From assembly GCA_964529985.1 (NCBI GenBank), contig CAZGYL010000001.1:1-36201 (forward strand): 36,201 nt of DNA, given 5' to 3'. A program made the translations under genes and the position numbers. This document shows, piece after piece, positions 6,253 through 20,118 of this stretch (position 1 is the stretch's first letter; each line of letters begins with the position of its first letter). Source of the stretch: an uncultured Planctomycetia bacterium (GTDB taxonomy: Bacteria; Planctomycetota; UBA8108; UBA8890; UBA8898). The notes beneath the pieces were generated by a model, which had not been told where the DNA came from, searched no databases, and worked only from the letters and a program-made list of their open reading frames with translations.

Positions 6253-7274
6253 AAGAAGTACTTTTGGAACTCCGGGATGTCAAAATATATTTTCCCGTTT
6301 ACAGCGGGGTTCTGCTGCGTAAGACAGGTGACATAAAAGCGGTGGACGGAGTTTCGCTCAAGATATACAAAGGGGAAACCTTAGGCCTTGTAGGGGAATC
6401 AGGTTGCGGAAAAACGACCCTCGGCAGGGGGATCATGGGGCTTGTGCCTGTAAGCGGCGGGTCGATCCTTTTCAAAACGACGCAAGGCAATGTCATAGAT
6501 CTTGCGCCGCTTTCGCGCAGGGCGTACCGCCCGCTCCGCGCCGAGATTCAAATGATTTACCAAGACCCTTATTCCTCTCTCAATCCCCGCTGGACCGTGG
6601 ACCAGATCGTGGCCGAGCCCCTTGCGGTGCACAGGCCGGATCTCTCAAAGCGCAAACGCACCGAGCAGGTGCGTTTGCTCCTGAGCAAAGTCGGGCTTAC
6701 CGAGGAGCAGGCACACCGGTATCCTCACGAATTTTCAGGTGGACAGCGGCAGAGGATCGGTATTGCAAGAGCCCTTGCCACCGATCCGCGTCTTATTATA
6801 GCCGACGAGCCGGTTTCAGCACTTGACGTGTCGATCCAGGCCCAAGTCCTGAATCTGCTTCAAGATTTGCAGGATGAGTTCGACTTGACCTACATGTTCA
6901 TCGCCCATGACATCTCGGTGGTTGTTTATATGGCGCACAGACTTGCGGTGATGTACCTGGGAACGCTGTGTGAGGTCGGACCGGCTCTCGAGGTCTACAA
7001 ACGCCCCTTGCACCCTTACACCAAGGCTCTTATTTCAGCGGTACCTCTACCCGATCCGAGGCTCAAGCGGGCGGATCGCGTGCGCTTGGGCGGCGAAGTC
7101 CCGAGCCCACTTGCCGCTCCGGAAGGCTGCCCCTTCAGCACACGCTGTTCGGAAGCCTGCGAAGAATGTGAAAGCATTCGGCCTGAGCTCAGCGAGGTCG
7201 AATCGGGACGATTCGTCGCCTGCCATAGGGTCTCTCGGCCGAAGGCGGAACGGGAAACGGAGGCGGCGCGCTGA
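6249..7274 (+). CDS. ABC transporter ATP-binding protein (DppF/OppF-like)
   Basis: ORF 6177..7274 trimmed to GTG 6249, which overlaps the upstream stop as GTGA. Walker A GESGCGKTT, signature FSGGQRQR, Walker B LIIADEPVSALD, H-loop IAHDI. C-terminal GCPFSTRCSEACEEC...VACH. Confidence 0.9.
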   Translation: MKEVLLELRDVKIYFPVYSGVLLRKTGDIKAVDGVSLKIYKGETLGLVGESGCGKTTLGRGIMGLVPVSGGSILFKTTQGNVIDLAPLSRRAYRPLRAEIQMIYQDPYSSLNPRWTVDQIVAEPLAVHRPDLSKRKRTEQVRLLLSKVGLTEEQAHRYPHEFSGGQRQRIGIARALATDPRLIIADEPVSALDVSIQAQVLNLLQDLQDEFDLTYMFIAHDISVVVYMAHRLAVMYLGTLCEVGPALEVYKRPLHPYTKALISAVPLPDPRLKRADRVRLGGEVPSPLAAPEGCPFSTRCSEACEECESIRPELSEVESGRFVACHRVSRPKAERETEAAR

Positions 7275-7282
7275 TTGCGCTC

Positions 7283-8548
7283 CTACGAGAGATTCTTCAC
7301 GCCGAGAAGCATTCTCCCCAGAAGCGTCCAATCGTCCAACTGTTTCTCGTCGATTCCGATTTCAGCCAGATACCCCCGGTCAAGCTCAAGCTCTCTTTCT
7401 TCCTTTGCCTTTGTTTCCTCCAGTTCGATTGCGTGGGCGAGCCAATCCGCGACATGAACCGCTGTGAGGGGCAGGAATCCCGCCGTTTTTCTTTCCGAAG
7501 GTTCATGATGGTAGAGTGCAGCCTCAACAAGTGCATGCGGTAACCCCCAAAGGCCCAGTAAGTAAGCGCCTACTTCGGAGTGGGTTGTGCCGCAAAGGGC
7601 TTTTTCAAGCTCAACGAGAGGTACTCCTTTGCGCCAGCCTTCAATGACATGGCGGTAGGTATCGGGAATCATGCAGGACAGAACGAGCTTTCCCACATCG
7701 TGAAGTAAGCCGGCGGCGAAAGATGTCTCGACGACTTCTTGTCCTGCTCCTGCAGCCCGTGCGAAAGCTTGAGAAAGTGAAGCCACTTGCAGGGAATGTT
7801 CCCTCAGCTTTTGCAATGAAACAGGCGGGTCGTGCGGAGCCCGGAAACTCTCAAAAATGGCGAATGAACAGACAAGCACCCTCGTGCGCACAAGTCCGAG
7901 CAGGGAGACCGCTCTGCCCGGATCGCTCACCTCCGACCTCAAACCGAAGAAAGCGGAGTTGACCAATTGGAGAAATTTTGCAGAAAGCGCCGGATCCTGC
8001 TTTACGCATTGAGCGATATGCGGAATTGAAGGCTCGGGCCGGTGAAGCAAGTCCAGAAGTCTCGAGTAGACTTCAGGAACGGGCGGCAGAGTTTGAAGTT
8101 CCGCTACAATATCAGCGAGCCCGGGATCGGAGATCCGCTCCCGCAGTGCCCAAAGTCCCGCCAGTGAGCTCCTCAGTTCCCGAGGAGCGGAGAACTTGGG
8201 TATGAACCTGTGGACGAGAGTGGATGACCGCAGGATATCTCCGATTCGACTGTACGATCCGTAAACCGCACGGATAGTTTCGGGCGAATGTATCAGAGCC
8301 TGTTCGAAAAGCCCAAGTCCGTTTTGGCCCGGAAGATCGAGCTCTGCAAGCAGGAGATCGTACCGCTCCGAGGAAAGTCGTTCGACGGCCTCACCCGGAT
8401 CACAAGAAACGTTGACATTCCACTGGGATTCTTCGCTTCCGCGTAACGCATCCTCGACAGCCTGAGCACATTTTTTATCGCCGCTCACAAAGAGAAGTTC
8501 CATACGCCGGGTTGGTCTTTCACTTTCCATTGGTATTTCCCCCATCAT
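7283..8548 (-). CDS. Response-regulator receiver (REC) + HDOD domain protein
   Basis: REC-like N-terminus MELLFVSGD...YDLLLAELDLPGQNG...FIPKF. HDOD region LPPVPEVYSRLLDLLHRPEPSIPHIAQCVKQDPALSAKFLQLVNSAFFGL and HD-like GLLHDVGKLVL. Start is uncertain: ATG 8548, ATG 8530 (GGGGGA 7 nt upstream) or ATG 8503. Confidence 0.85.
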   Translation of the reverse strand: MMGEIPMESERPTRRMELLFVSGDKKCAQAVEDALRGSEESQWNVNVSCDPGEAVERLSSERYDLLLAELDLPGQNGLGLFEQALIHSPETIRAVYGSYSRIGDILRSSTLVHRFIPKFSAPRELRSSLAGLWALRERISDPGLADIVAELQTLPPVPEVYSRLLDLLHRPEPSIPHIAQCVKQDPALSAKFLQLVNSAFFGLRSEVSDPGRAVSLLGLVRTRVLVCSFAIFESFRAPHDPPVSLQKLREHSLQVASLSQAFARAAGAGQEVVETSFAAGLLHDVGKLVLSCMIPDTYRHVIEGWRKGVPLVELEKALCGTTHSEVGAYLLGLWGLPHALVEAALYHHEPSERKTAGFLPLTAVHVADWLAHAIELEETKAKEERELELDRGYLAEIGIDEKQLDDWTLLGRMLLGVKNLS

Positions 8549-8556
8549 GCACAGGT

Positions 8557-8586
8557 AAAAAAAGGGGGGCCGGAATTTCCGGCCCC
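8557..8586 (-). terminator. Rho-independent terminator (minus strand only)
   Basis: Minus strand reads GGGGCCGG-AAAUU-CCGGCCCC, then CC and a run of seven U (8563-8557). The plus-strand reading has no U-tract. It ends 8 nt before the first possible start codon of the REC-HDOD ORF. Confidence 0.8.
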
Positions 8587-8750
8587 TTGCGTGGTCCGTG
8601 TGCCGGGTCGTTCACCGGCTGATTATTCTGTATGGGCCAGATGCCCATTGCTTGGCGGGGGCCGGGAAGGTGGTAGGTACGCCGGCACAGCGCCCAATCC
8701 ACCGAAATGGGCCGCGCGCGGCCCACCTTCCCGACTCCCGTCATGCCGGT
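8557..8750 (-). ncRNA. Candidate structured leader or small RNA (about 190 nt), bounded by an ECF-type promoter and the intrinsic terminator
   Basis: A 17-bp helix with one A.C mismatch pairs GGGAGUCGGGAAGGUGG (8739-8723) with CCACCUUCCCGGCCCCC (8673-8657). It encloses the GGGCCG-CGCG-CGGCCC and CCAU-UUCG-GUGG hairpins. Further hairpins (AUGGGC...GCCCAU, GCCGG...CCGGC) precede the terminator. No credible ORF is present. Confidence 0.4.
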
Positions 8751-8754
8751 CAGC

Positions 8755-8782
8755 ATTACGTGCGGCGCAGCAACACGTTTCA
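8755..8782 (-). promoter_or_regulatory. ECF-sigma-type promoter candidate, TGAAAC-N16-CGTAAT
   Basis: Minus strand has TGAAAC (8782-8777), an exact 16-nt spacer, then CGTAAT (8760-8755). This resembles the GAAC/CGT class of ECF promoters. It lies about 15 nt after the stop of the 737-aa gene and about 15 nt before the long helix. Confidence 0.35.
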
Positions 8783-8796
8783 GCGGCGCAACTCGG

Positions 8797-11010
8797 TCAG
8801 CCCTGCCGGCCGACTTTGGATCCCGAAGTGCGCCGCACGGACTCGTTCTTCTTTTTCTCATTCACCTCCACCAGTTGGATCTGTACGGGACCCGGCGGAG
8901 AAATCAGCACATCCCCGACTGAGACATGAGTCACCCGGCCATTGCGGGTGCCCACACAGCGGTAAACGCCTTTTACGATTCCAGGGATTATGATTCCTCC
9001 TTGCGGATCGACGATGCATTTATGAAGTTGTCTGCCTGCGGAATCCAAGATTTCCAAGAAACGCGGAGGCCGACCGGAACTCACGTTTATACGGCCTCTG
9101 ACAAAAGGAGCCGGTGTGAGTTGGATCGAAATGGGACCGGCCGCGGGGACCTTAATGGAATGAAGTTCAACAGGTGCGAAGCCGTAGGCCGCAACAAGTA
9201 CGTCGTAGGTTCCGGGAGGAATCCCCTGGGCCACTCCTACTCCACGTTCGACTCGAAGCGCAGCGGGTTGATAACGCGAGCTGCCCTCACGGGCATACCA
9301 GAAGTTGACCCAAGAAAACTCAGGTGCAGCGCCTTCGACCGTCAGATTGAAAACCAGGCGTGTACCTTGAGTATCGTTCTGCTCGGGAGCCGGTTTGAGA
9401 ATCAGCACAACCTCTTCACCGAAGGAGTCGACCTGAATCGCTTCGCTTCTCAGCCCGGCGGCCCTTGCCATGATCAGGTGTTTTGCCTTTTCCAGGCCGA
9501 AAGCCAGGAATCCTCCCTCACCGTCGTAGAGAATATGAGTGGGGGCAACCGGCCTCCAACCGTTTGCAATGCCGGGATCGGAAACGCGCAAAACCACGCG
9601 CCCTCCCGGGACCGGCTGGCCGTTCTCGGTTATCATGCGGCCGTGGAGCTCCTCTCCTTTAGTGGCCGTACCGACCCAGGGGGTAAGTCGGGGGAGGACG
9701 ACTTCGCGTTCGCCTTCGCGCGAAGCCGCCATGGTGCGGTGCAGCCACCTTACGGCATAGCGGCCTGCGGGTACTCCTTCGATTTGAAACGCGCCGTTCC
9801 TATCGGTTCGCGCAACGAAAAGCTTCGGTTCAACAAACCTGCCTATTAGGAACTCAACGTTGTTCCAGTAAGACGGGCGATCGACCGGAAATATCTTGAC
9901 ACTGACACCGGCTACCCCTTTCCCCTCTTCGTCTACGATCCGCCCGGCGAAAGTGCATAGTTCGTTGAGTTTAACCGCAAAAGGCTTTCCGCTTTCAATC
10001 TCGCCCGCGCGATAGAGCGTCCAGCCGGGAGCGAAACCATCCGCGCTCGCCACAAGAACCGTTTCCCAAAGCACGCACGGGGCGTGCCAGGTAAAGCGCC
10101 CGCTGGCATCCGCAACGGTTTCGCGCCAGTCTTTTGAAGCAAAAAGCCCTTTTCGTACCAGCCAACTCCAACAAACTCTCGCGAAAGGTACCGGCCTTCC
10201 TGTGGGATCCAAAACCACGCCTTCCCGAGTGAGTGCCGGTTCAAGAAGGAAAAGAACCGGACGCGATCCGGTGTCGTATGCCTGAAGCCCCACCCAGCGT
10301 GTCGCTGCGGTGAATCCAGGGCATCTGACGTCTATTCTGAAAGAAAGGAGCTCCAACGTGCGGCGGGGGGGAGCGTCCGCTCTCAAAGTAATTCGAAGCG
10401 GCGGAAGGGGCAAAACACCGCAACCGTCCGGACCTGTACGTGCGCCTTGAAGAGGGGGGCCTTCAGGTTCCGAAACCGTGATCGTTGCACCTGCAAGGCT
10501 TTCCCCGGTCTGGGCGTTCAGCACTTTAACGCCGTATGACAGGTGGTCGGGAAGCGGCAATTCGAGGGGATTCGGCAGTTCACCTTGCGAGAGAAAGGTA
10601 ACGGGCGTGTAGTCCAGGTGCTGGACGTACAGTGTGAAGGAGGGGCCCCGATACGGAAGCGAAAGGCGGAACCTGCCGTTCTCGTCGGTTTGGATCTTTC
10701 CGCTCGGTCCCTCCTCCCACCGCACGGAGGCGCCGGGAATCGCCTCGCCGTCGCTCAAGCGTACGACGCGGCCTTCGAGCGTGGCCTGTTCCCCCTTTTT
10801 CCCTTCGGGTTCCTCATGCTTTTCCCCAGAAAACGGTGTGGGGGCGGGCCAGCGGTTCGCAACGGCAGGGTCGAACCGCTCGGCCTGCGGACGAGTGGTA
10901 CGGCCGGCAGGGTGGGAACCCCACGAACCCGCCCACCACCAGGCGTTGAGGGCGATCACGATTACAAAGGCGCCGAGGACCAACCACTCTCGTCGCCGTG
11001 AACCCATCAC
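8797..11010 (-). CDS. Membrane-anchored (N-terminal TM) protein with tandem carboxypeptidase-regulatory-like beta-sandwich repeats; paralogue of the sigma-fusion ectodomain
   Basis: N-terminal anchor EWLVLGAFVIVIALNAWWWAGSW. Repeated G-R-(V/I)-x-D-x-x-G-x-P-(V/I)-x-G/A-x-V motifs: GRVVRLSDGEAIPGASV, GVVLDPTGRPVPFARV, GRIVDEEGKGVAGVSV, GRMITENGQPVPGGRV. The start is GTG 11010 or ATG 11007. Confidence 0.8.
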   Translation of the reverse strand: MMGSRRREWLVLGAFVIVIALNAWWWAGSWGSHPAGRTTRPQAERFDPAVANRWPAPTPFSGEKHEEPEGKKGEQATLEGRVVRLSDGEAIPGASVRWEEGPSGKIQTDENGRFRLSLPYRGPSFTLYVQHLDYTPVTFLSQGELPNPLELPLPDHLSYGVKVLNAQTGESLAGATITVSEPEGPPLQGARTGPDGCGVLPLPPLRITLRADAPPRRTLELLSFRIDVRCPGFTAATRWVGLQAYDTGSRPVLFLLEPALTREGVVLDPTGRPVPFARVCWSWLVRKGLFASKDWRETVADASGRFTWHAPCVLWETVLVASADGFAPGWTLYRAGEIESGKPFAVKLNELCTFAGRIVDEEGKGVAGVSVKIFPVDRPSYWNNVEFLIGRFVEPKLFVARTDRNGAFQIEGVPAGRYAVRWLHRTMAASREGEREVVLPRLTPWVGTATKGEELHGRMITENGQPVPGGRVVLRVSDPGIANGWRPVAPTHILYDGEGGFLAFGLEKAKHLIMARAAGLRSEAIQVDSFGEEVVLILKPAPEQNDTQGTRLVFNLTVEGAAPEFSWVNFWYAREGSSRYQPAALRVERGVGVAQGIPPGTYDVLVAAYGFAPVELHSIKVPAAGPISIQLTPAPFVRGRINVSSGRPPRFLEILDSAGRQLHKCIVDPQGGIIIPGIVKGVYRCVGTRNGRVTHVSVGDVLISPPGPVQIQLVEVNEKKKNESVRRTSGSKVGRQG

Positions 11011-11082
11011 TGCGTTCTCCGCACTACCGGGGTAACCAACCTCCGCTGCTGTACAAAGCCTCCGCAGATCTCCAGACTCCCT

Positions 11083-11106
11083 TTACGTCTTGCTTCGTTA
11101 CGTCTT
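11083..11106. repeat. Direct repeat TTACGTCTT x2 (15-bp period) upstream of the 737-aa gene
   Basis: ttacgtctt at 11083-11091 and at 11098-11106. On the coding (minus) strand this reads AAGACGTAA x2, about 75-95 nt upstream of the start. Confidence 0.6.
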
Positions 11107-11119
11107 AACGCTGTGCACA

Positions 11120-11566
11120 TTACTCAGTGCAGTCTTGACAGTAATCACAAGGATCCGACCAAACCGGCGTTACGTAGTGCGTCGAAGGCGAAAGGCACGG
11201 AAGATAAATGTACACTTTCGCCCACGAGCCTCTTGGATCGTCCCAGTCGAACCTTTCCGACTCCAGGCACCAGTTCACAAGCGATACGTCCGACTCAACG
11301 TCGAAACAGTACTCATTCCAATCCAGGCCGACCCACAGCGTGATCGTGTGATCGCAAACGTTGAACGTGTCCGGACTGTAGAGGTAGAGGCAGAGCCAAC
11401 CTGATTCCGACCCCTCCTTTGTGACCTCACCGTCGCACCACTGAAGGCAGCTCTGGCAGCTCTGGTCCACATCGGTCGAGTAAATCGAGAGGTTGTTGCA
11501 GGTAAGGTCGCCTCCGGCCGGAATACCTATCAAAAGAAGAACCGCTGCAAGTGACGCGCGAAGCAT
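11120..11566 (-). CDS. Small secreted Cys/Trp-rich acidic protein (148 aa precursor), unknown family
   Basis: ORF 11120..11596 trimmed to ATG 11566, which has AAGGAGG 6 nt upstream. Signal peptide MLRASLAAVLLLIGIPAGG. The mature part has 12 Cys and 8 Trp. GC is locally lower, about 50-55% over lines I hand-counted versus about 60% in a neighbouring gene. Confidence 0.7.
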   Translation of the reverse strand: MLRASLAAVLLLIGIPAGGDLTCNNLSIYSTDVDQSCQSCLQWCDGEVTKEGSESGWLCLYLYSPDTFNVCDHTITLWVGLDWNEYCFDVESDVSLVNWCLESERFDWDDPRGSWAKVYIYLPCLSPSTHYVTPVWSDPCDYCQDCTE

Positions 11567-11796
11567 AGCCTTTCCTCCTTGGTCTGCGCGGTGCAACCGA
11601 ATTGTGGCTGCATCGCATGCTTCCTCATTGACTTATGCCCCGCAGAGGCCGGCCTGAGTGCCAAAAAATTTCCGCGTTTCCGATTTCTTTTTTTTCACGG
11701 AGGCGATAAAAGAGGCTTAGGCGGCGCGGGCGAGTGCGGCGGGAGGACCTGTGGACGAAGAGGCAGGGGGGTGAAGCAGGAGAAAAGGACCCTCAG

Positions 11797-14298
11797 CTAC
11801 CTGGGCCGAGCACGCTCGCTTCGCAGGCGGATTTCAATCGGGGAGCTTCTGGGCAGCTGGATATCGGTAATTTCCACGGGCCGGTAGCCCGGCACGAAAA
11901 TACCGATACTGTAGGCGTCCCCCTCAAGCCCGGCGAGCTGAACGACACCGCTTCTTGCGAGCGTGTGGTACTTTAGGGTTTCGCCGCCTGCCGACCTGAG
12001 GGTCAGAGTCACCCGTTCGCTTTCCAGAAGGCCTTGTTCGGTTGTCAGCCGCAGCAGCAGGGAAGGCTGAAGAGGAGCGTACGGCCTGCGGCCCGACGAA
12101 AGGACGAGCGCCAGGTCGGCTGCAGGGTACTCCAGGGTGATCTCTTGAGGAAGCCCTTCAGGAGAGGTGATAAGCAGGCGGCAGGGAAAGCGCACGCGGG
12201 GGTCGAACCTGAAACTGCCGTCAGCAAGGCACTCGACGGCGCTTGAACGCTTTAGCCCCTCAGGAAGGCCGCTGGCCCACGTAAGAAGCACCCGGGCACG
12301 CGGTATCGGCTTCAGCCGCTCGTCAAGCACTCTTCCCCAAAGCTCTCTGACTTGCACCTTTCCCACCCACGGTACATGACGCGGAACCGTTAGGCAGGAA
12401 TCCGCTGCGGCTGCGAGGCCCGACAAGGTCACCCGGTAGCGTCCCGGCGGTACCTTTTCAAGGTGAAAGGCTCCTGTACCGTCGGTTACCCCTTCAAGAC
12501 CGCGCCCTCCGGGAAACCGTTTCAGGAGGCTTGCCACCAGAGGCTCAACACCGGCCGGCACAAGTTTGAAAACCATGTGGGCAAGAGATGACCCGTCGGC
12601 CGCAAGCAGTTTGCCTTCAACCGAAAACGCTTGACCCAAGTGAATCGAAAGCGGTTGGTCCGGTTCTTTGACTTCGGTTTGAAGGACAGCAGGAGCAAAA
12701 GGCTCCCGCCATACTGCGATGGTGCAGGCTCTGAATCTGCGCGGAAGCGTCAGGGCAAACCGGCCGGATTCATCCGCAACTGCTGCCAGTGGGCCGGGGT
12801 TCGGCAGGATCGGACCTTCGTCCGAAATTGAGCTTACCCTTGCAAGTACCCGCGCACTTGCAACGGGTCGTCCCTCAGGGTCGAACACAATGCCTGTGAT
12901 AGTAATCCCTCTTGCCAGGCGGATGATTCGTTCGCCCGGGCGGGCGCTCAAGGTAATAGGAATCCTACGTGGGACGTAACCGGGAGCTGAGATTTCAACC
13001 GAGGCGCTTGGAGGCCAACTGCATATTCTTCCTGCTGCAACGTCGGCTTGCATCTCGCCCGGGCGCAGCGCGACTTCGCCCGTCTCACCGGTTGGACCCT
13101 GCGTGAGCTCGGGGCAGCAGGATATGCGAAGTCGCAACAAAGCGCCTTCAAGCGGCGAGGCGCTTTGTGCGTCGAGCACTTTGAAGCGGAAAGGCTTGTC
13201 CGGAAGCAGGTACAGAAGAAGCCTGGTTTCAAATGGATCAACCACAGTGAAGCGTGCAGGTAGAAAGCCTTCCCTCTGGACCGTAAGTTTGAGAAGATTT
13301 TCGTGCGAGCAACTCAAAATCGCGGTTCCGTCGCTCTGCGAGAGAGTAAATGACCGAGGATCAGAGGCGTCGGAAATTCCAAGGACCGCCCCTTCGATCG
13401 GTTTCTCTTCAGGCCACGAAACAACAACCGCTGATACGCGTCTCATATCGGGCCTGAGCGCGCTTCTTCGTCCCGCCTCCAAGCGCTCTCCGAAATGCCC
13501 GATCGTAGGGCCGATCAGAGCCACCTTCGGGACCCTATCCCTAGGAGTCTCGGGCTGCGTGTTTCGGCCTCCCAGCAAAATGATTCCAACGAGGCAGACA
13601 GACGGAATTGAAAGCAAGGCCGCAAGCTTCGCTGCAGCCGAGGCCGGCTGCAGCCCTCCGCCCGCCGGTGAAGCGGGAAGACTCTGAGCCGCTTTTAAAA
13701 CTGTTTTATCCAATTGCCCGGCCGGAAGTTCTGCAGCAGAGACTCGGTCGGGCCACCCTGCCAGAGCTGCAAGCACCCCTGCGCCGAAGGTTTTTTTCAG
13801 AAGCTCCCTGCCTCTGACAAGTCGGCGCTGAACCGTGCGGACGCTGCACGCCATAAGGTCCGCAACTTCCTCCCGCGTAAGCTGGGCGCAGTGAAAATAG
13901 TAAAGCGTAAGAGCAAGTTCTTTATCCAAGGAGTTCAGCATGTCCCAGATTTCGCTGAGCAGAGGATCGGGGGGCCGCTGCTCGTGATCTCTGTTCCGGG
14001 CGGCCCGCATTTCCCTCAGCCGCCTGCGCTCTTCGGTGCGTATCCAGCGGCTGGCAAGCTGGTGCGCAAGAACGACCAGGTAGATTCTGGGGCTGGCGGG
14101 AAGCGGAAGCGCCGGGCGGCTGAGAAGCAGCCCCAGAAACACGTCCTGCGCCACATCTTCAGCTGCAGCCCAATCGCCTGTCACGCGGTAGGCCGTCGTT
14201 AGGACCAGATTGCGGTATTCGGCGTATAGGGCAAGAAAATTCTCTCGCGTAGGGCAACGGAGATATCGCTCCAGGGTATCGCCTCGCATCTTCCCCAT
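11797..14298 (-). CDS. ECF sigma-70 family factor fused through one TM helix to a roughly 590-aa extracytoplasmic carboxypeptidase-regulatory-like repeat domain
   Basis: Region 2: AAEDVAQDVFLGLL...YLVVLAHQLASRWIR. Region 4 HTH: LTLYYFHCAQLTREEVADLMACSVRTVQRRLVRGRELLKK (aa 1-170, nt about 14298-13789). TM helix AAKLAALLSIPSVCLVGIILLGG (nt about 13632-13567). Repeats follow: ITGIVFDPEGRPVASARV, VEGKLLAADGSSLAHMVF, LWGRVLDERLKPIPRARV. GGAGG lies 8 nt upstream of the ATG. Confidence 0.85.
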   Translation of the reverse strand: MGKMRGDTLERYLRCPTRENFLALYAEYRNLVLTTAYRVTGDWAAAEDVAQDVFLGLLLSRPALPLPASPRIYLVVLAHQLASRWIRTEERRRLREMRAARNRDHEQRPPDPLLSEIWDMLNSLDKELALTLYYFHCAQLTREEVADLMACSVRTVQRRLVRGRELLKKTFGAGVLAALAGWPDRVSAAELPAGQLDKTVLKAAQSLPASPAGGGLQPASAAAKLAALLSIPSVCLVGIILLGGRNTQPETPRDRVPKVALIGPTIGHFGERLEAGRRSALRPDMRRVSAVVVSWPEEKPIEGAVLGISDASDPRSFTLSQSDGTAILSCSHENLLKLTVQREGFLPARFTVVDPFETRLLLYLLPDKPFRFKVLDAQSASPLEGALLRLRISCCPELTQGPTGETGEVALRPGEMQADVAAGRICSWPPSASVEISAPGYVPRRIPITLSARPGERIIRLARGITITGIVFDPEGRPVASARVLARVSSISDEGPILPNPGPLAAVADESGRFALTLPRRFRACTIAVWREPFAPAVLQTEVKEPDQPLSIHLGQAFSVEGKLLAADGSSLAHMVFKLVPAGVEPLVASLLKRFPGGRGLEGVTDGTGAFHLEKVPPGRYRVTLSGLAAAADSCLTVPRHVPWVGKVQVRELWGRVLDERLKPIPRARVLLTWASGLPEGLKRSSAVECLADGSFRFDPRVRFPCRLLITSPEGLPQEITLEYPAADLALVLSSGRRPYAPLQPSLLLRLTTEQGLLESERVTLTLRSAGGETLKYHTLARSGVVQLAGLEGDAYSIGIFVPGYRPVEITDIQLPRSSPIEIRLRSERARPR

Positions 14299-14328
14299 CG
14301 AGAAGACCTCCTGAAAGTCACTAAGAGC

Positions 14329-14357
14329 ATTATGAGGGGTTCTCGGGCGCTGATCAA
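14329..14357 (-). promoter_or_regulatory. Sigma-70-type promoter candidate TTGATC-N17-CATAAT for the sigma-fusion gene
   Basis: Minus strand has TTGATC (14357-14352), a 17-nt spacer, then CATAAT (14334-14329). The site is about 30 nt upstream of the ATG at 14298, with the SD sequence in between. Confidence 0.45.
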
Positions 14358-14394
14358 GGCCGAAAAAACGTCGGAAAGCCGGCCGGCGGGATTC

Positions 14395-15141
14395 TCAGGT
14401 ACCCACACCAAGCCATTTCTGAAGTAGAAAGGTGATTCGGCCGATCAGTAAGGACACCCTCGCCATGACCGTGTAACCGAAGGACGCACCAAAAGAGACC
14501 ATAAGGAAAAGCACGCCCACCCGACTTGCGATCCCCCAGGCGCCCTTGTGCTCCACAGAGAAAAAGAAGTAGAACAAAACCGTCATGACACCCGTAAAGA
14601 CCACCAGGGCGTTGACATCGAAGGCGCCGTGTGCCCAAAGGGGCTGCATGGTACCTGCGATTTGCTGGAAGATGTAGTTGGTCACATACCTGGGGATTGC
14701 GAATCCCGCAGTGAAGCCCACGATGAACGCGAAAGATATGCGGCTCAGGTACGCGAGGGGCCGGGAGAAACGCAGGAAGAGAAAGAGACCGAGCGAGGCG
14801 GGAACGGCGACCTTCAGAAAGTACCATGCTCCGGCCTGGCGGGGCGGGTTGCGGAGGGGCTCGATTACCTCTATTACTATAACCGGATACCAAACCTGGA
14901 GGAATGTGTACGCAGCGGCGACACCTACGTACAAGTGCTCGGCGAAGGTGAAAAGGGGATTATCCCGGTACAGGAAGCTGTAAAGACTCAAAGTCAGCCC
15001 TGCGGCGGCAATGATTCCGAAACCCGACCAATCGGCTTTCAGCCGACCTGCGAAAAACAAAAGCGCATTGATTCCGGCGAAAAGCACCATGAACGTCAAC
15101 ACCAGCGGAACGTTTCTTTGCTGAGATCGTTCATTTTCCAT
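14395..15141 (-). CDS. Polytopic integral membrane protein, unknown family (module gene D)
   Basis: ORF 14395..15195 trimmed to ATG 15141 (MENERSQQRNVPLVL...), which overlaps the stop of the upstream gene by 11 nt. It is hydrophobic throughout, with about 7 predicted helices. I recognise no catalytic or transporter motif. Confidence 0.7.
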   Translation of the reverse strand: MENERSQQRNVPLVLTFMVLFAGINALLFFAGRLKADWSGFGIIAAAGLTLSLYSFLYRDNPLFTFAEHLYVGVAAAYTFLQVWYPVIVIEVIEPLRNPPRQAGAWYFLKVAVPASLGLFLFLRFSRPLAYLSRISFAFIVGFTAGFAIPRYVTNYIFQQIAGTMQPLWAHGAFDVNALVVFTGVMTVLFYFFFSVEHKGAWGIASRVGVLFLMVSFGASFGYTVMARVSLLIGRITFLLQKWLGVGT

Positions 15142-15964
15142 AGCTCGGGATCCTCTTGCGTTGCAGCAGGAAGAGCGCGTTTCCGGTGAAAACAAGCAAC
15201 ACGATCAAAAGATGGGCCGCACACTGCGCGCGCATTCCCGCCATAGCGGGCCCGCTCCGCCCGGTGAGGTACTCGTACTCCGCGGCTCCGGCCAGCCCTC
15301 CAAGCAGCCCCTCCAACTGGCCTGTCTGGATCCACGGGTAAAGATCCGGCGCAACGACCGCCGTGCAGCCTCCTCCGACCGGTATATGGGCTTTGTCCTG
15401 CCCGTATACGATCCACCACTCAAGCGTTTCCCCGTGGGTTATAACCATAAGGTAGTTGAAGTCACCCAGATTCCGGATGTCAGAAGCAACCGGAAGCTTT
15501 GAGATCGGAGTTCCCCGCCAATCGCGATCAAACGCTGCTGAGAAGCGCTCCGTCATGGCGATGATGAGAGCACGCTCGCCGGAACGGTATCCCAGATAAA
15601 CGTAATCCTTGCCGTACTGTCTGCCGTATCGCTTCGCCTCTTCTTCGAGCACGGATCCCACGAGGCCTACTCCTGCAGGCTGGTGGGTCATCGCAACTAT
15701 GCGGATTCCCAAACGAAAGCAGTGCCCCAGGAGCGTATGTGCCATGGGGTTGAGCTCTTCTTTGGAGGAAGGATCATAGTCCATGGAAACCAAGATACGC
15801 GCGCCGGGCTTTCGTCCCAGTGATTCGATGCGCTCGAAAACACGCCTTGTCAGAGGAGAGGGCCTTATGGGAAGGCGGAACGGCACCAGTATCGCAGCGA
15901 CAACCGAAGAGAAGAGCAGGACGAAGATAATCCGCCGGTCGAGATCGGCAAGTCTGCTGAGCAC
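15131..15964 (-). CDS. Bitopic membrane protein (TM, about 200-aa domain, TM), unknown family (module gene C; paralogue of gene A)
   Basis: GTG start with AAGGAGG 5 nt upstream. N-terminal TM IIFVLLFSSVVAAILV and C-terminal TM AAHLLIVLLVFTGNALFLL. Topology and co-linear motifs are shared with the 326-aa protein. Confidence 0.7.
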   Translation of the reverse strand: MLSRLADLDRRIIFVLLFSSVVAAILVPFRLPIRPSPLTRRVFERIESLGRKPGARILVSMDYDPSSKEELNPMAHTLLGHCFRLGIRIVAMTHQPAGVGLVGSVLEEEAKRYGRQYGKDYVYLGYRSGERALIIAMTERFSAAFDRDWRGTPISKLPVASDIRNLGDFNYLMVITHGETLEWWIVYGQDKAHIPVGGGCTAVVAPDLYPWIQTGQLEGLLGGLAGAAEYEYLTGRSGPAMAGMRAQCAAHLLIVLLVFTGNALFLLQRKRIPSYGK

Positions 15965-16001
15965 TATCGCCTCCTTCCAAAGGGAGTCATTTCAGGAGAC
16001 A

Positions 16002-16652
16002 CTATTCGCCTCCGAGGTACGTGCGCTCGACGCCGAGGATGATCCGAAGCGAGGTCGCTACGATTCCCAGTCCCATGCCGATCAGAATCGCCCGCTTCAC
16101 CGCCATGTTGGGGTAATCAAGAAGCCAATCTGCAAGCTGTGGGATTCGGATGCCGAGCAGGTTGCCGATGGGGATCCGGCCGATCATAACCACAAGCGCA
16201 GCAAGAAGAAGCACGGTCGCCTCAAAAGTTTTTGCTCTAAAAGCACGGTAAGCGGCCGAAGCTATGAAAAACGCCAAAAGAGAAAACATGGTGGCGCTGC
16301 ACGGCACCTGTATGTAGTTGTAAAGCCAATCGACCCGGCGGTCCGCCAGCTCCGTCACGAAAGGCCCCTTGCCCCCGTTGTAGAGCCCGAAAAAAAGGGT
16401 GAGCGCGAATCCGACGAATACAACGAAACTGTAGGCGGATCCCGGACTCCGACTTCGAATTTTCGCCCAATGTACGCTCAGCAGGTTTACAAGTCCCAGA
16501 ATCAAGGCGAAGCCGAGTACGATACTTCCCCATTTTGAAAGCGTCTCGCTTACGGCATTTGCCGTCGGGTGGGAGCTCCAATAGACTGCTATGCACACAA
16601 CGCCGGTTATGGAAGCCACGGCTGTGGGAAGCACCCTGTGAAGGAACCTCAC
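16002..16652 (-). CDS. Polytopic integral membrane protein, unknown family (module gene B)
   Basis: GTG start with GGAGG 6 nt upstream. About 6 hydrophobic helices, for example IVLGFALILGLVNLL, SFVVFVGFALTLFFGLY, MFSLLAFFIASAAY, ATVLLLAALVVMIG, AILIGMGLGIVATSL. Confidence 0.7.
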   Translation of the reverse strand: MRFLHRVLPTAVASITGVVCIAVYWSSHPTANAVSETLSKWGSIVLGFALILGLVNLLSVHWAKIRSRSPGSAYSFVVFVGFALTLFFGLYNGGKGPFVTELADRRVDWLYNYIQVPCSATMFSLLAFFIASAAYRAFRAKTFEATVLLLAALVVMIGRIPIGNLLGIRIPQLADWLLDYPNMAVKRAILIGMGLGIVATSLRIILGVERTYLGGE

Positions 16653-16695
16653 GCCAACCTCCGGTTTTCTCTCTGCACAACAGCGCCCGCTGCGG

Positions 16696-17676
16696 CTATT
16701 TCAAGAGAAAGAAGTCCTTCAAGACATGGCAGCCGAGTGACTCAAGCAGGAAGCCGGCGGCCAGAGCGGCCATAAGCGCCGCCTTCGCGCAATCCTGAGC
16801 TTTCAGGCTTCCAAGAAGTACGGGCTGTCTAGAGAGGTACGCGCTCGCTGCGTAGAACTCATCGCCCATGATCACATAGTCGCAGGTTGTAACAAAAAAC
16901 GGCAACTGCGTGTACTTATCGGTTCCTGCGATCTGGAGAGTGCCGCAACTGAGCCCGGTCTCAGTGAGAATAAGTGATTCAGCGTAAAAAGGACCGAAAT
17001 ACAAGACCGAGGCCGGCCTCGCGCGCACGATAAGGCCGCTCAATGCTGCGGCGTAACTGAATTGCTCAGCTGCAAGAAAGACAACCGACCGGCGCTTGAA
17101 AGCGCTCCCCTTCGCCTCTTCTGTATACGCTTCCTTGACTGTTTCTTCGGTTACGGCATGTACTCCGGGATAAATGTTATACACTCTGAGCTCGGCTCCG
17201 TAACGAGCACAAAGTCGAGCCACATGTTTCAAGACATTTACAGCCGCTACGGTCGGGATCTCCGTAAGAGGGAGGAGCCCGGGTGAGAAGAAAAGCGGAC
17301 GGCCCATTTCAACGGCCCTGCCCACCGCCTGTTCGAGGGCATCCAGGCCGGGAATCCGACGCACGAAGATCTCAGGCCGCCTGCGGGCGTATATCGTCCA
17401 GCCCACAACGAGAATCGACATCAGAATGGTTACAACGGCATGGCCCGAGTACTTGGTGTTGAACCAACCGGGCTGCACGGAGGCTTTGCTGAGCACAAGC
17501 CTTCCCTGAGCGGGTCGCCCTTGGGAATGCGCGGGTTTCTCCCAATCGGCTCCGGCGGAAAAACACCTCAGGCACAGCAAGAGAACAAGAGCCGAAAAAA
17601 GCGTTCTAAAGTGCCTGATCCAGAAACCACTTTCCGGTTCACACAATTCGCTGCGACGAGGCATAAAGCTTTCCAC
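16696..17676 (-). CDS. Membrane protein (signal/TM, TM, about 200-aa domain, TM), unknown family (module gene A)
   Basis: ORF 16696..17676 starts at GTG; ATG 17664 is an alternative. Hydrophobic segments: FRTLFSALVLLLCLRCFSAGA, AVVTILMSILVVGWTIYA and C-terminal AKAALMAALAAGFLLESLG. The central region begins IPGLDALEQAVGRAVEMGRPLFFSPG. Confidence 0.65.
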   Translation of the reverse strand: MESFMPRRSELCEPESGFWIRHFRTLFSALVLLLCLRCFSAGADWEKPAHSQGRPAQGRLVLSKASVQPGWFNTKYSGHAVVTILMSILVVGWTIYARRRPEIFVRRIPGLDALEQAVGRAVEMGRPLFFSPGLLPLTEIPTVAAVNVLKHVARLCARYGAELRVYNIYPGVHAVTEETVKEAYTEEAKGSAFKRRSVVFLAAEQFSYAAALSGLIVRARPASVLYFGPFYAESLILTETGLSCGTLQIAGTDKYTQLPFFVTTCDYVIMGDEFYAASAYLSRQPVLLGSLKAQDCAKAALMAALAAGFLLESLGCHVLKDFFLLK

Positions 17677-17686
17677 GCGCTTCAGG

Positions 17687-17707
17687 CCGTTCCTCCCTGA
17701 GGAACGG
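17687..17707. promoter_or_regulatory. Perfect 9-bp inverted repeat with a 3-nt spacer between the kinase gene and module gene A
   Basis: Plus strand reads ccgttcctc-cct-gaggaacgg. In minus-strand RNA the 3' arm plus the loop contains AGGGAGGAA, the only SD-like sequence upstream of gene A. Confidence 0.5.
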
Positions 17708-17745
17708 TCGGCCTTTTTCCGTGTGGAGTATTTGGGTTTCCGACT

Positions 17746-19263
17746 TCAGGTCTCTTCTTTTGCAAGCCGGTCCAACTCATGGAGTATGTCCACCGTTTTG
17801 CCGTAGACCCGGCGATAGAGAGCAAAGCGTTTCCTGTACGAAGCTGCATCCTGCGGGATAGGCTCAAAGACCCGGCTTACCTTCGCAAGCGATCGGGCCG
17901 CCGCCTCAGGGTCTTCTATAAGTCCTGCCGCCTTTCCACCAAGCAAAGCCGCGCCGAACCCGGCTCCCTCCGTTGCATGGAGCGTAAGTACCGGGCGGTC
18001 CAAAATGGAAGCCGCTATCTGCATCCACACTTCTGATCGGGCCGCTCCACCTATCGCCTTGTAGCGTTCAATGGAAACGCCCGCTTCCTTCAGAAGCTCC
18101 GTGTTAAGAAGGATGTCGTAGGTTACGCCTTCAAGGATGGCCCGCGCTATATCGCGCCTCTGTGTTGTGAGGTGAAGACCGAGAATCGCGCCCCGGGCGC
18201 GGGTGTCCAAGTAAGGCGTTCCGGTGGTTGTGAAGTAGGGAAGTACAAGGAGCGCGGTGGGCTTCTGAGGCAGGTCCCCGCAGATTATGTCGTAAACGTC
18301 CCGTCCCGTTCTTTCCGCTTCCTCGCGCTCTTTGACGGCGAATTGGTCGCGGTACCATTTGAGCAGGCTGCCGCCTGTGAAGTTCCAGGCGAGCGAAACG
18401 TACTGGCCTTTTCCATAGGTCGGATAGGCGCAGAGGTTGTTTCTTATCATTACCGCCGGATCCGGGCTCCCGGTAAGCCGCACTCCGAGGCATACGACCG
18501 TACCGATGGCGTACATGGCCTCACCCGGACCGGTACCTGTGCCCAGAATTCCGGCAGGCTGATCGTGCAGTCCGGCGCCGATTACACAGTCCTCAGGGAG
18601 GCCCAAGTCGTTTTTCCCTATCTCGCCCACCGCCCGGCCGGGTTCCACAGGCTCGGCCAGCTTCTCAGGTCCGATTCCTGCGATTTCGAGCATGCGGTCG
18701 GACCAGCAAAGCCGCTTTACATCGAAAAGCAAAGTGCGTGCTGCAAGTGAATAATCAACAGCCGGCGGCAGCCCCATTGCGTTAACAAAAAAATCAGCGA
18801 AGCAAAGCCATTTATGAGCTCGTGAAAAGACGTCGGGCCGGTTCTTGCGGAACCAAAGCAGCTTGCAGATGGAGTGATAGCTGTTTATGGGGTGGCCCGT
18901 AACGGCGAAGCATTCCTCTTGTGAAAGTTTCTCCCGGAGCTCAAGCACCTCCTGCTCGCCCCGGCAATCGAACCCGATGATCGCGTTTGCAAGGGGCTCT
19001 CCGTTGTTGTCCACAGGCACCATGGCCTCGCCCAGCACGCTCCATGCGATGCTGCGGGGAGGGTCTTTTTTGGCTTGAGCCGCAACTTGGGCCAGCACCG
19101 TACGGATACCGGCGAGCACTTCCTGCGGCACCAGCTCAAGCTGGCCGGGTTCCGGACTCACCATGTTGTACTCGCGGTAAGCGGAAGCGATAACCCGTCC
19201 GTCAAGATCAAAGGCTACGGCCTTCGTGCCTGTAGTTCCAATGTCGAGTCCGATGATAGACAC
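17746..19263 (-). CDS. FGGY-family carbohydrate kinase (xylulokinase-like)
   Basis: ORF 17746..19287 trimmed to GTG 19263, which has AGGAGG 8 nt upstream. N-terminal SIIGLDIGTTGTKAVAFDLDG is the actin-fold phosphate-1 motif. GGSLLKW and IGGAARSEVWMQI are FGGY C-domain motifs. Confidence 0.88.
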   Translation of the reverse strand: MSIIGLDIGTTGTKAVAFDLDGRVIASAYREYNMVSPEPGQLELVPQEVLAGIRTVLAQVAAQAKKDPPRSIAWSVLGEAMVPVDNNGEPLANAIIGFDCRGEQEVLELREKLSQEECFAVTGHPINSYHSICKLLWFRKNRPDVFSRAHKWLCFADFFVNAMGLPPAVDYSLAARTLLFDVKRLCWSDRMLEIAGIGPEKLAEPVEPGRAVGEIGKNDLGLPEDCVIGAGLHDQPAGILGTGTGPGEAMYAIGTVVCLGVRLTGSPDPAVMIRNNLCAYPTYGKGQYVSLAWNFTGGSLLKWYRDQFAVKEREEAERTGRDVYDIICGDLPQKPTALLVLPYFTTTGTPYLDTRARGAILGLHLTTQRRDIARAILEGVTYDILLNTELLKEAGVSIERYKAIGGAARSEVWMQIAASILDRPVLTLHATEGAGFGAALLGGKAAGLIEDPEAAARSLAKVSRVFEPIPQDAASYRKRFALYRRVYGKTVDILHELDRLAKEET

Positions 19264-19293
19264 GGCTCTGACCTCCTGGTCCTCCAAACAGCG

Positions 19294-20118
19294 TCAATAT
19301 CCTTCGAAGATTTTCTTGCGCTCGCGCTTGTACTGCTCTTCGGTGATTATCTTCTTGTCCAGGAGCTCGCGCAGGTACTTGAGGCGGTGCATGCGTTCTT
19401 CATCCGAGAGCTTTGGCTTTTGCGGCTGTTTTTCCGAGGGAGCCTCTTGGGGAGGTTTGGTTTCCGGCTCCTGGGGCTTTCCACCCGCCAGATTTTCAAA
19501 GGGCACTTCAAGCCAGAGGCGATGGGTGCGGCCTTTCGGATCGCGGTGCAATCTTGCTGCAGGCGGGAGAATGAGCATGCAGGTGCTCACTGTGTGCCGC
19601 GTCGGATCGTCCCATTCGGTCCTGAAGAGCTCCTCCCGCCTGTCCGATTCAGGAGTATCGTCCACAAGGTCGAACGCTACGTTCAACACACCGGCCGGTT
19701 TGACGAATACCACTCCGCGTGAAACCCGCGTTATCGGGATAAACTTAAGCTCGGTGTGCGGATTGCTCATTTTGAACCTGATCCGCTCTGAAGGACCGCA
19801 ACGCGCAAGGCCTTCGGCTACGGCCTGAGCAAAAGCCGGGACCAGGTCCGAGGAGAAAACAGGAAGTTCCCGCGTGGTTAAGAGTCCCTCCGAGCGGTAC
19901 TTGAGTGAAGCGAAGAACTTCTGGAGATCCGCAACCGGGAGCCTCGCCGGGTGGGCGTAGCCCGCATCGACCACCGCCCCGCCTCGTCTCAGCTGTTCGA
20001 TCTCTACAACGAGGTGATTCTCGCTTACAAGCGGCACCTTAAGCTGCCATGTTGTAGCTGCACAGCCGCAAAGGAAGAGCAACCCGGAAAGAAGGAAGTT
20101 CACCGCGGCCTTTTGCAC
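19294..20118 (-). CDS. Lipoprotein with a C-terminal SHOCT domain
   Basis: ORF 19294..20157 trimmed to GTG 20118, which has AGGAGGAG 5 nt upstream. That start gives the signal peptide MQKAAVNFLLSGLLFLCGC with a lipobox-like LCGC. A Pro/Glu/Lys-rich linker follows. The C-terminus LSDEERMHRLKYLRELLDKKIITEEQYKRERKKIF matches the SHOCT pattern. Confidence 0.7.
   Translation of the reverse strand: MQKAAVNFLLSGLLFLCGCAATTWQLKVPLVSENHLVVEIEQLRRGGAVVDAGYAHPARLPVADLQKFFASLKYRSEGLLTTRELPVFSSDLVPAFAQAVAEGLARCGPSERIRFKMSNPHTELKFIPITRVSRGVVFVKPAGVLNVAFDLVDDTPESDRREELFRTEWDDPTRHTVSTCMLILPPAARLHRDPKGRTHRLWLEVPFENLAGGKPQEPETKPPQEAPSEKQPQKPKLSDEERMHRLKYLRELLDKKIITEEQYKRERKKIFEGY

What the first reader, a model, noticed from the sequence alone, without database searches (positions are those of the whole stretch)
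8549..8796. ECF-type promoter, a 17-bp-closed multi-hairpin RNA and a canonical intrinsic terminator, packed immediately upstream of the REC-HDOD gene
Reading the minus strand after the stop of the 737-aa gene gives four elements in order. First, TGAAAC-N16-CGTAAT (8782-8755), an ECF-class -35/-10 pattern. Second, about 15 nt later, a 17-bp helix with one A.C mismatch (8739-8723 pairs with 8673-8657) that encloses the GGGCCG-CGCG-CGGCCC and CCAU-UUCG-GUGG hairpins. Third, two more short hairpins. Fourth, a GC-rich 8-bp stem followed by U7 (8586-8557). The terminator ends only 8 nt before the first possible start codon of the REC-HDOD ORF. No promoter can fit between them, so that gene can only be expressed by read-through. 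The 3' strand of the long helix (CUUCCCGGCCCCC) nearly duplicates the terminator 3' arm (UUCCGGCCCC). It can therefore pair with the terminator 5' arm, giving a classic 1:2 / 2:3 / 3:4 attenuator geometry. There are two readings. One is a riboswitch- or attenuator-type leader controlling the REC-HDOD regulator. The other is a stand-alone ECF-dependent sRNA of about 190 nt, comparable in concept to the sigma-E-dependent sRNAs of enterobacteria. I see no match to SRP, 6S, c-di-GMP or tmRNA signatures.
Basis: seen in the sequence. Interest (0 to 1): 0.62.

Follow-up and report, generated by a model that had tools for sequence, protein, structure and literature searches.

The report
Orphan structured RNA with terminator
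The gap in front of a response-regulator gene holds an unusually stable folded RNA followed by a strong transcription stop signal. It probably limits how much of that regulator is made, but it has no relatives anywhere, so its function cannot be tested by comparison.

Summary
All four elements are present on the minus strand at the stated coordinates.

**Beyond chance**
- **Folded domain:** it lies at 8750-8614 and consists of a three-way junction with a rod of about 30 bp. Shuffle z-scores are -4.3 to -4.6, and 1 of about 3000 random genome windows folds as well after GC correction.
- **Terminator:** 8586-8557 ranks 18th of 2701 T-run hairpins in the genome. It is the only convincing minus-strand terminator in the stretch 7000-26000.

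**Not beyond chance**
- **ECF-like promoter:** TGAAAC-N16-CGTAAT has 0.11 matches expected in the window. Genome-wide there are 40 hits against 23-42 at control spacings, and the motif is absent upstream of the sigma gene.
- **Attenuator geometry:** the 1:2/2:3/3:4 arrangement exists only formally. Energies are -36.6, -20.8 and -22.8 kcal/mol, and blocking strand 1 still leaves the terminator in the best fold.

**Comparisons**
- No Rfam family matches, and the element is single-copy.
- A covariance model finds nothing in about 490 genomes of the phylum.
- Both flanking genes lack close homologues among 5.8 billion proteins.
- One 99.7%-identical strain contig adds nothing. Covariation is therefore untestable.
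- The tool for finding sequencing runs was closed, so there is no transcript evidence.

**Best reading (about 40%):** an intercistronic attenuator gating an atypical REC-HDOD regulator whose phospho-acceptor Asp is replaced by Glu. A stand-alone sRNA or a plain 3'UTR remain live alternatives. Interest is modest.

The parts
8797..11010 (-). Upstream 737-aa gene with CarboxypepD_reg repeats. Its stop codon is at 8799-8797.
   Evidence: ORF list. Pfam PF13620 at 3.9e-40. No homologue at E<=1e-30 among 5.8 billion proteins other than itself.
8755..8782 (-). ECF-like hexamer pair TGAAAC-N16-CGTAAT. It is present but statistically unsupported.
   Evidence: Sequence. The window has 1 match against 0.11 expected. 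The genome has 40 hits against 23-42 at control spacers. The second exact copy is antisense inside a long ORF.
8614..8750 (-). 137-nt three-way-junction domain. P1 is 8750-8741 paired with 8622-8614. P3 is the hairpin 8648-8632. The A/U-rich single strand ACAGAAUAA lies at 8631-8623.
   Evidence: MFE and centroid folds. Shuffle z -4.3 to -4.6. GC-corrected genome-background z -4.2, reached by 1 of about 3000 windows. The C8749T difference in strain L051 keeps P1 paired as a G.U pair.
8602..8619 (-). Short hairpin GCCGG-UGAACGAC-CCGGC. Its 5' arm is the 3' strand of P1, so the two are mutually exclusive.
   Evidence: The 159-nt fold forms this hairpin. The 202-nt fold forms P1 instead.
8557..8586 (-). 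Intrinsic terminator: 9-bp stem GGGGCCGGA/UCCGGCCCC, loop AAU, CC spacer, then U7.
   Evidence: Terminator scan. Hairpin energy -23.8 kcal/mol, rank 18 of 2701 T6+ runs. It is the only convincing minus-strand terminator in 7000-26000.
8528..8543 (-). Shine-Dalgarno-like GGGGGA (8543-8538) and the probable start codon ATG (8530-8528) of the REC-HDOD gene.
   Evidence: Sequence. The 415-aa product on record, called from this ATG on L051, is in the protein collection.
7283..8530 (-). Downstream REC-HDOD gene, encoding an atypical receiver. The acidic pocket DD is replaced by SG and the phospho-acceptor Asp by Glu.
   Evidence: Pfam HDOD at 5.5e-54. Response_reg scores 25.2 bits, below the cut-off. 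Alignment with 11 homologues.
8520..8756 (-). 78-codon open frame that runs through the whole structure and the terminator. JGI called it as a gene on L051. It is rejected here as a conserved protein.
   Evidence: JGI gene call. An exhaustive phmmer search of 1.84 billion representatives finds only itself plus low-complexity hits. There is no Shine-Dalgarno sequence. GC by codon position is uninformative.

Best explanation
The 266-nt spacer encodes, on the minus strand, a non-coding RNA module made of a very stable 137-nt three-way junction, a short hairpin and a strong intrinsic terminator.

I think it most likely acts in cis as an intercistronic attenuator. Transcripts arriving from the ECF-sigma / Cys-rich / 737-aa genes, or from an unidentified local promoter, mostly end at 8557. 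This leaves a stable, structured 3' end. Only the fraction that reads through reaches the Shine-Dalgarno sequence and the ATG at 8530, and so makes the REC-HDOD protein.

That protein's receiver domain lacks the phosphorylatable Asp, so its activity would be set mainly by its abundance. This fits a gene gated at the level of transcription.

- **Shown:** the fold, the terminator, the lack of room for a recognisable promoter, and the atypical receiver.
- **Inferred:** that the region is transcribed, that termination is partial (suggested by the CC spacer between stem and U-tract), and that read-through is the gene's only source of mRNA.
- **Unknown:** whether read-through is conditional, through a ligand, a protein or temperature.
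For: - **Fold stability and strand bias:**
- **Terminator:** it is strong, and it is the only convincing one on this strand in 7000-26000.
- **Promoter space:** no sigma-70-like promoter in 8000-9300, and only 26 nt between the U-tract and ATG 8530.
- **Distance from the upstream stop:** the U-tract ends 240 nt after the upstream stop. The median for terminators behind co-oriented genes in this genome is 106 nt and the 75th percentile is 201 nt, so about 140 extra structured nucleotides sit between stop and terminator.
- **Not a conserved protein:**
- **Atypical receiver:** the receiver has E in place of the phospho-Asp. The canonical paralogue sits directly behind a histidine kinase with no leader.
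Against:
- No homologue exists, so there is no covariation or conservation test.
- Thermodynamic modelling shows the junction domain and the terminator as independent modules, with no competing antiterminator unless the -36.6 kcal/mol helix is opened.
- A near-perfect long rod is not typical of ligand-binding aptamers.
- Other REC-HDOD genes examined have no such leader.
- The promoter rules of this lineage are unknown, so a promoter overlapping the terminator cannot be excluded.
Confidence: 0.4

Rival explanations
1. It is a stand-alone small RNA of about 190 nt, transcribed from its own promoter just after the 737-aa stop codon. That promoter may be the ECF-type pair at 8782-8755. The RNA ends at the terminator and acts in trans, for example through the single-stranded ACAGAAUAA stretch. 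REC-HDOD expression would be a side effect of leakage.
For: - The predicted start, 6-8 nt after CGTAAT, coincides with the 5' end of closing helix P1 at 8750.
- The size, the strong terminator with U7, and a single-stranded A/U-rich segment between hairpins all fit an sRNA.
- Canonical terminators are rare in this genome, with about 54 intergenic sites. They are about 15-fold more frequent after RNA genes (8 of 47 tRNAs) than after protein genes.
Against: - The promoter motif occurs at chance level. It shows no enrichment at the diagnostic spacer and is not found upstream of the ECF sigma gene.
- There is no second copy and no homologue in about 490 genomes of the phylum.
- No target or chaperone evidence was sought.
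Confidence: 0.2
2. It is an ordinary long 3'UTR of the 737-aa gene. The rod protects the mRNA from 3' exonucleases, or is an RNase III processing site, and the terminator simply ends the ECF operon. REC-HDOD would have an unrecognised promoter overlapping the terminator region, or would be barely expressed.
For: - It is the single convincing terminator of the gene train on this strand.
- A coaxial duplex of about 30 bp is long enough for RNase III, by general knowledge of that enzyme.
- There is no sign of a switch in the energy model.
- The locus is lineage-specific, so a young, non-optimised arrangement is plausible.
Against: - The distance from stop to terminator is unusually long for this genome.
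- The stability is extreme, in the top 0.03%.
- No promoter-like site lies between or over the terminator and the ATG.
- A good Shine-Dalgarno sequence and ATG follow immediately.
Confidence: 0.25
3. Translation-coupled control in the manner of pyrBI. The 78-codon frame (8756-8520) would be translated, so that a ribosome following the polymerase prevents the terminator hairpin from forming. The frame's stop codon lies 8 nt past the REC-HDOD ATG and would couple translation of the two.
For: - The frame is open through the terminator and overlaps the REC-HDOD start.
- JGI's gene caller annotated it.
Against: - None of its ATGs has a Shine-Dalgarno sequence.
- It has no homologue among 1.84 billion representative proteins.
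- At 64% GC, my own estimate is that an open frame of this length across the spacer is expected in roughly a quarter of cases on one strand.
- Its product looks like a translated GC-rich hairpin.
Confidence: 0.04
4. It is a DNA-level element rather than an RNA, for example an inverted repeat left by a mobile element or a protein-binding palindrome.
For: Long, near-perfect inverted repeat.
Against: - It is single-copy in the genome.
- The minus strand folds better than the plus strand (z -4.26 against -2.64).
- The arms are 49 nt apart and enclose further hairpins.
- A directional terminator follows it.
- No integrase or transposase gene lies nearby.
Confidence: 0.05

Closest known systems
Terminator-type riboswitches and protein-dependent attenuator leaders
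   Same: A structured multi-helix junction domain of about 140 nt is followed by an intrinsic terminator about 26 nt before the Shine-Dalgarno sequence and start codon of the controlled gene. The 3' strand of the closing helix P1 can alternatively pair downstream.
   Different: No conserved aptamer can be shown, because the element is a singleton. The energy model gives no convincing mutually exclusive antiterminator. The main helix is a near-perfect rod. There is no match to any Rfam riboswitch.
Intercistronic attenuator of the E. coli rplKAJL-rpoBC operon (rplL-rpoB spacer, with an RNase III site and a partial terminator). This comparison is from my own knowledge.
   Same: A long spacer between co-directional genes contains a long duplex and a terminator. 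The terminator lets only part of the transcripts reach the distal gene.
   Different: There is no sequence relationship. Partial termination and processing are unproven here.
Sigma-E-dependent and 3'UTR-embedded sRNAs (MicL within cutC, DapZ, RybB, MicA). This comparison is from my own knowledge.
   Same: An ECF-type -35/-10 pattern sits at the 3' end of a protein gene. It is followed by a structured RNA of about 190 nt that uses the terminator of that locus.
   Different: The promoter motif is at chance level in this genome. No conservation, seed or target has been shown, and the organism is unrelated.
Leader-peptide attenuators (trp type; pyrBI type)
   Same: The formal 1:2/2:3/3:4 arrangement is present, and an open frame runs through the terminator.
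   Different: There is no short leader peptide with a Shine-Dalgarno sequence or regulatory codons. Helix 1:2 is 16 kcal/mol stronger than 2:3.

Membership tests
Intrinsic (Rho-independent) terminator | G+C-rich hairpin immediately followed by a U-tract on the transcribed strand. | tested here: met
   9-bp stem with 8 G-C pairs, a 3-nt loop, a CC spacer and U7. Energy -23.8 kcal/mol.
Any Rfam 15 family (riboswitches, 6S, SRP, tmRNA, c-di-GMP, ribozymes) | Score at or above the family's gathering threshold. | tested here: not met
   There were 0 matches at gathering thresholds over the window. In E-value mode there were only sub-threshold miRNA-type or terminator-only matches. ARAGORN found nothing.
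6S RNA | End-to-end closing stem, a large central bubble and a terminal stem. Match to RF00013. | tested here: not met
   The fold is a three-way junction followed by a separate terminator, with no central bubble. RF00013 finds nothing anywhere in the genome, and the control detects it in only 5 of 14 genomes, so sensitivity is limited.
Riboswitch with terminator expression platform | Aptamer conserved, with covariation, across species. | tested here: inconclusive
   No homologue was found in about 490 genomes of the phylum, in the family searched with lax filters, or next to homologous genes. The only other copy is a 99.7%-identical strain.
Riboswitch with terminator expression platform | Mutually exclusive terminator and antiterminator folds. 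| tested here: inconclusive
   The 2:3 duplex is possible at -20.8 kcal/mol. It does not form in the best fold even when strand 1 is blocked. The terminator is worth 17 kcal/mol.
Riboswitch with terminator expression platform | Binding of a specific ligand. | not testable with these tools
   Needs in-line probing or ITC.
Leader-peptide (trp-type) attenuator | Short translated leader ORF with a Shine-Dalgarno sequence and regulatory codons overlapping strand 1. | tested here: not met
   The only frame with ATGs is the 78-codon frame, which has no Shine-Dalgarno sequence and no stop before 8520.
ECF-sigma-dependent sRNA | Functional ECF-type promoter, seen as a motif shared with the sigma factor's other targets or its autoregulated promoter. 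| tested here: inconclusive
   The motif is present. It is at chance frequency, shows no spacer enrichment and is absent upstream of the sigma gene.
ECF-sigma-dependent sRNA | Discrete primary transcript. | not testable with these tools
DUF2294/MpsC-linked leader RNA of Planctomycetota (earlier notes of this scan) | A DUF2294 gene close to the leader, and a multi-copy rod-plus-terminator RNA. | tested here: not met
   There is no PF10057 match in the whole genome. The RNA is single-copy.

The most novel reading that the evidence does not exclude
The junction domain would be the sensor of a new, lineage-specific conditional terminator, either a riboswitch or the target of an RNA-binding protein. 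Its own promoter would be driven by the neighbouring membrane-tethered ECF sigma factor. An envelope signal would then be relayed through regulated read-through into a phosphorylation-independent REC(Glu)-HDOD regulator. The terminated product would double as a small RNA.
Probability: 0.1. Interest if true: 0.6.

Novelty: new member of a known kind. Interest (0 to 1): 0.3.

Why it matters
If the module really gates the REC-HDOD gene, it would show an atypical, non-phosphorylatable response regulator being controlled at the RNA level, downstream of a membrane-tethered ECF sigma cluster. It would also add an RNA leader or sRNA from a poorly sampled lineage. As it stands it is a single-lineage candidate. 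It is worth a line in an annotation and a look in any metatranscriptome of the source habitat, but it opens no general question.

Tried and rejected
**Searches for relatives that found nothing**
- Rfam at gathering thresholds found nothing, and in E-value mode gave only sub-threshold matches.
- BLAST of the 252-nt region against 60 relatives gave only short chance matches.
- Scans for relatives of REC-HDOD in metagenome and genome contigs found nothing.
- An exact 21-mer scan of metagenome contigs found nothing.
- REC-HDOD has no relative above 39% identity, apart from one 99% cluster.
- The 737-aa protein has only itself at E<=1e-30 among 5.8 billion proteins and a 27% hit in the family.
- Covariance model R1 was searched over 100 relatives, the family with lax filters, 400 genomes of the phylum, and 20 loci next to homologous genes. 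None gave a hit.

**Comparisons without power**
- The strain contig L051 has 44 differences in 13,248 nt. None fall in 8557-8748, and 7 fall in about 405 nt of the other spacers.
- Those differences cluster in the sigma / Cys-rich region. By my own rough estimate the contrast is only marginal (p about 0.07), and I do not use it.

**Readings rejected**
- The 78-aa ORF is rejected as a conserved protein.
- The DUF2294-linked leader family suggested by earlier notes is rejected, because the genome has no DUF2294 gene.
- 6S RNA is rejected on the shape of the fold, and RF00013 finds nothing in the genome.

**Checks that led nowhere**
- Other REC-HDOD genes, including the in-genome paralogue, have no terminator-bearing leader.
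- A rough ORF-based survey of terminator-to-next-gene distances was too noisy. It was repeated with a crude gene set.
- The attempt to name the organism through an ABC ATPase gave only a phylogenetically mixed list, so the taxon remains unnamed.

Full report
**Setting**

The window is a contig of a fragmented metagenome-assembled genome of 5.8 Mb in 1018 contigs, 89% complete and 57.5% G+C. Two minus-strand genes flank the region. Upstream is a 737-aa protein made of CarboxypepD_reg repeats (8797-11010). Downstream is a REC-HDOD protein (7283-8548 from the first ATG). Further upstream on the same strand lie a small Cys-rich gene and an 833-aa ECF sigma fused to a CarboxypepD_reg ectodomain. 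The JGI gene call on the near-identical contig L051, and the 415-aa product on record for the window's own contig, start REC-HDOD at ATG 8530. That start is preceded by GGGGGA. The true spacer is therefore 8531-8796, 266 nt at 63.5% G+C.

**Observation**

- The helix 8739-8723 / 8673-8657 has 17 positions, with one A.C mismatch and one G.U pair.
- RNA folding extends this helix into a rod of about 30 bp (8740-8656).
- Folding adds a hairpin AUGGGC-AUCUG-GCCCAU (8648-8632).
- A helix pairing 8750-8741 with 8622-8614 closes the whole, giving a 137-nt three-way junction.
- A further hairpin (8619-8602) shares its 5' arm with the 3' strand of the closing helix, so the two exclude each other.
- The terminator is a 9-bp stem with 8 G-C pairs, a 3-nt loop, two C residues and then U7 (8586-8557).

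**Is it more than chance?**

For the fold, yes.
- The 202-nt stretch folds at -104.9 kcal/mol, z -4.62 against dinucleotide shuffles.
- The 159-nt stretch gives z -4.26, against -2.64 for the opposite strand.
- Against about 3000 random 137-nt windows of the same genome, the GC-corrected residual is z -4.2. One window equals it, and none has a lower raw energy.

For the terminator, yes.
- Its hairpin ranks 18th among 2701 runs of six or more T in the genome.
- It is the only convincing minus-strand terminator in the stretch 7000-26000. The overall count of terminator-like sites there equals the shuffle expectation.

For the promoter, no.
- TGAAAC-N15-17-CGTA has 0.11 matches expected in the window, and 11 of 100 shuffles contain one.
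- Genome-wide it occurs 40 times, against 23-42 for seven control spacers.
- The only other exact TGAAAC-N16-CGTAAT lies antisense inside a 1319-aa ORF.
- The ECF sigma gene, which would be expected to autoregulate, is preceded by TTGATC-N17-CATAAT and not by this motif.
- One point in the promoter's favour is that the start it predicts coincides with the 5' end of the closing helix.

**Coding?**

A 78-codon frame (8756-8520) is open across the structure and the terminator, and JGI called it as a gene. It has no Shine-Dalgarno sequence. An exhaustive HMMER search of 1.84 billion representative proteins finds only itself and low-complexity proline-rich matches. GC by codon position does not discriminate. 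I treat it as a chance open frame and keep a pyrBI-like translated-leader idea only as a minor rival.

**Known families**

- No Rfam family reaches its threshold anywhere in the window.
- The permissive scan gives only sub-threshold matches: eukaryotic miRNA, snoRNA and lncRNA models that score hairpin-like sequence, and two bacterial sRNA models matched over the terminator only.
- ARAGORN finds nothing.
- RF00013 (6S) finds nothing in the whole genome. However, the fold here has neither an end-to-end closing stem nor a central bubble.

**Relatives**

The element is single-copy in its genome.
- BLAST against 60 relatives gives only short chance matches.
- REC-HDOD has one 99%-identical cluster and nothing else above 39% among 5.8 billion proteins.
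- The 737-aa protein has no relative at E<=1e-30 except itself and only a 27% hit in the family.
- Scans of metagenome and genome contigs found nothing.
- A covariance model of the junction domain (R1) finds only itself in four searches. These covered 100 relatives, the family with lax filters, 400 genomes from 288 genera of the phylum, and 20 loci next to homologous genes with filters off.

The one related sequence is a 79.7-kb JGI contig, L051.
- It differs at 44 of 13,248 positions.
- In the spacer it differs at 8749, a C to T change that keeps the P1 pair as G.U, and at 8545.
- No differences fall in 8557-8748.
- Other spacers carry 7 differences in about 405 nt. These cluster in a locally variable region, so the contrast has no real weight.

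**Attenuator geometry**

Duplex energies are 1:2 -36.6, 2:3 -20.8 and 3:4 -22.8 kcal/mol. However, strand 2 is captured by strand 1 about 70 nt before strand 3 is made. When strand 1 is forbidden to pair, the best fold still contains the terminator. Removing the terminator costs 17 kcal/mol and gives its 5' arm no new partner. There is no leader peptide to occupy strand 1. The geometry is formal, and the model shows two independent modules. The only clear alternative pairing is between the closing helix and the 8619-8602 hairpin.

**Context that bears on the mechanism**

- **Promoter space:** no sigma-70-like promoter is detected in 8000-9300. Only 26 nt separate the U-tract from ATG 8530, so REC-HDOD mRNA must pass the terminator unless an unrecognised promoter overlaps it.
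- **Distance from the stop:** in a crude gene set, terminators behind co-oriented genes end a median of 106 nt after the stop (75th percentile 201). Here the distance is 240 nt, so the structured domain is an insertion between stop and terminator.
- **Terminator usage:** canonical terminators are rare in this genome, with about 54 intergenic sites. They follow 8 of 47 tRNA genes, a much higher rate than for protein genes. This mildly favours an RNA product.
- **Terminator strength:** the CC spacer between stem and U-tract should weaken termination. This is an inference from general knowledge of terminators.
- **The REC domain is atypical:**
  - Eleven homologues have FVDD(E/D) and D-M/I-R-M-P. 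This protein has FVSGD and E-L-D-L-P, so the acidic pocket is lost and the phospho-acceptor Asp is Glu, while the conserved Lys remains.
  - The canonical paralogue elsewhere in the genome sits directly behind a histidine kinase, without any leader.
  - A regulator that cannot be switched by phosphorylation is a natural candidate for control through its abundance.
- **Other REC-HDOD genes:** those examined have no terminator-bearing leader.

**Verdict**

This is a real and unusually stable non-coding module ending in a real terminator, placed where it must gate the REC-HDOD gene.
- My best reading is an intercistronic attenuator, possibly conditional, at about 0.4.
- A stand-alone sRNA (about 0.2) and a plain long 3'UTR with an mRNA-stabilising or processing rod (about 0.25) remain open. 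These three partly overlap.
- The ECF-promoter call and the classic attenuator claim are not supported by the tests that could be run.
I tested that lead, and this genome has no DUF2294 gene.

The element is an orphan without relatives or expression data. It is a modestly interesting candidate, not a discovery.

Noticed in passing
window 7283-8530 (-): The receiver domain of the REC-HDOD protein is a pseudo-receiver. The acidic pocket DD is replaced by SG, and the phospho-acceptor Asp by Glu (AELDLPG against the family's TDMRMPG). The conserved Lys is kept. Its Pfam Response_reg score is below the cut-off.
   Followed up: partly
G000:C5:25715-26794 (L046 1498-2754): A canonical REC-HDOD paralogue (35% identity) lies directly behind, and slightly overlapping, a histidine-kinase gene, with no leader. 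The window copy is therefore the orphan, atypical one.
   Followed up: partly
window 23690-23860 (-): This is the second most stable local fold of the window (-83.5 kcal/mol, z -3.1). It lies inside a 475-aa ORF (23209-24636), so it is probably an incidental or intragenic structure.
   Followed up: partly
G000:C68:5482-5710 (-): A 230-nt spacer carries two successive hairpin-plus-T-run terminators, the first right after the upstream gene and the second about 100 nt further on. This looks like a small independent RNA gene. There is no Rfam match.
   Followed up: partly
G000:C78:4263-4784 (+) and G000:C711:585-791 (+): These are further long, highly structured spacers that end in a terminator right at the next gene's start, with no Rfam match. 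The genome may hold several uncatalogued leader-type RNAs.
   Followed up: no
window 11597-11796 (-): The spacer upstream of the Cys-rich gene carries 5 of the 44 differences between the two strains. It also contains an A/T-rich stretch with TGGCAC, a half-site resembling the sigma-54 -24 element, without a matching -12 element.
   Followed up: no
whole genome G000: Canonical intrinsic terminators are rare, with about 54 intergenic hairpin(<=-15 kcal/mol)+T6 sites for about 4400 genes. They are relatively enriched behind tRNA genes (8 of 47). No 6S RNA is detectable with RF00013.
   Followed up: partly
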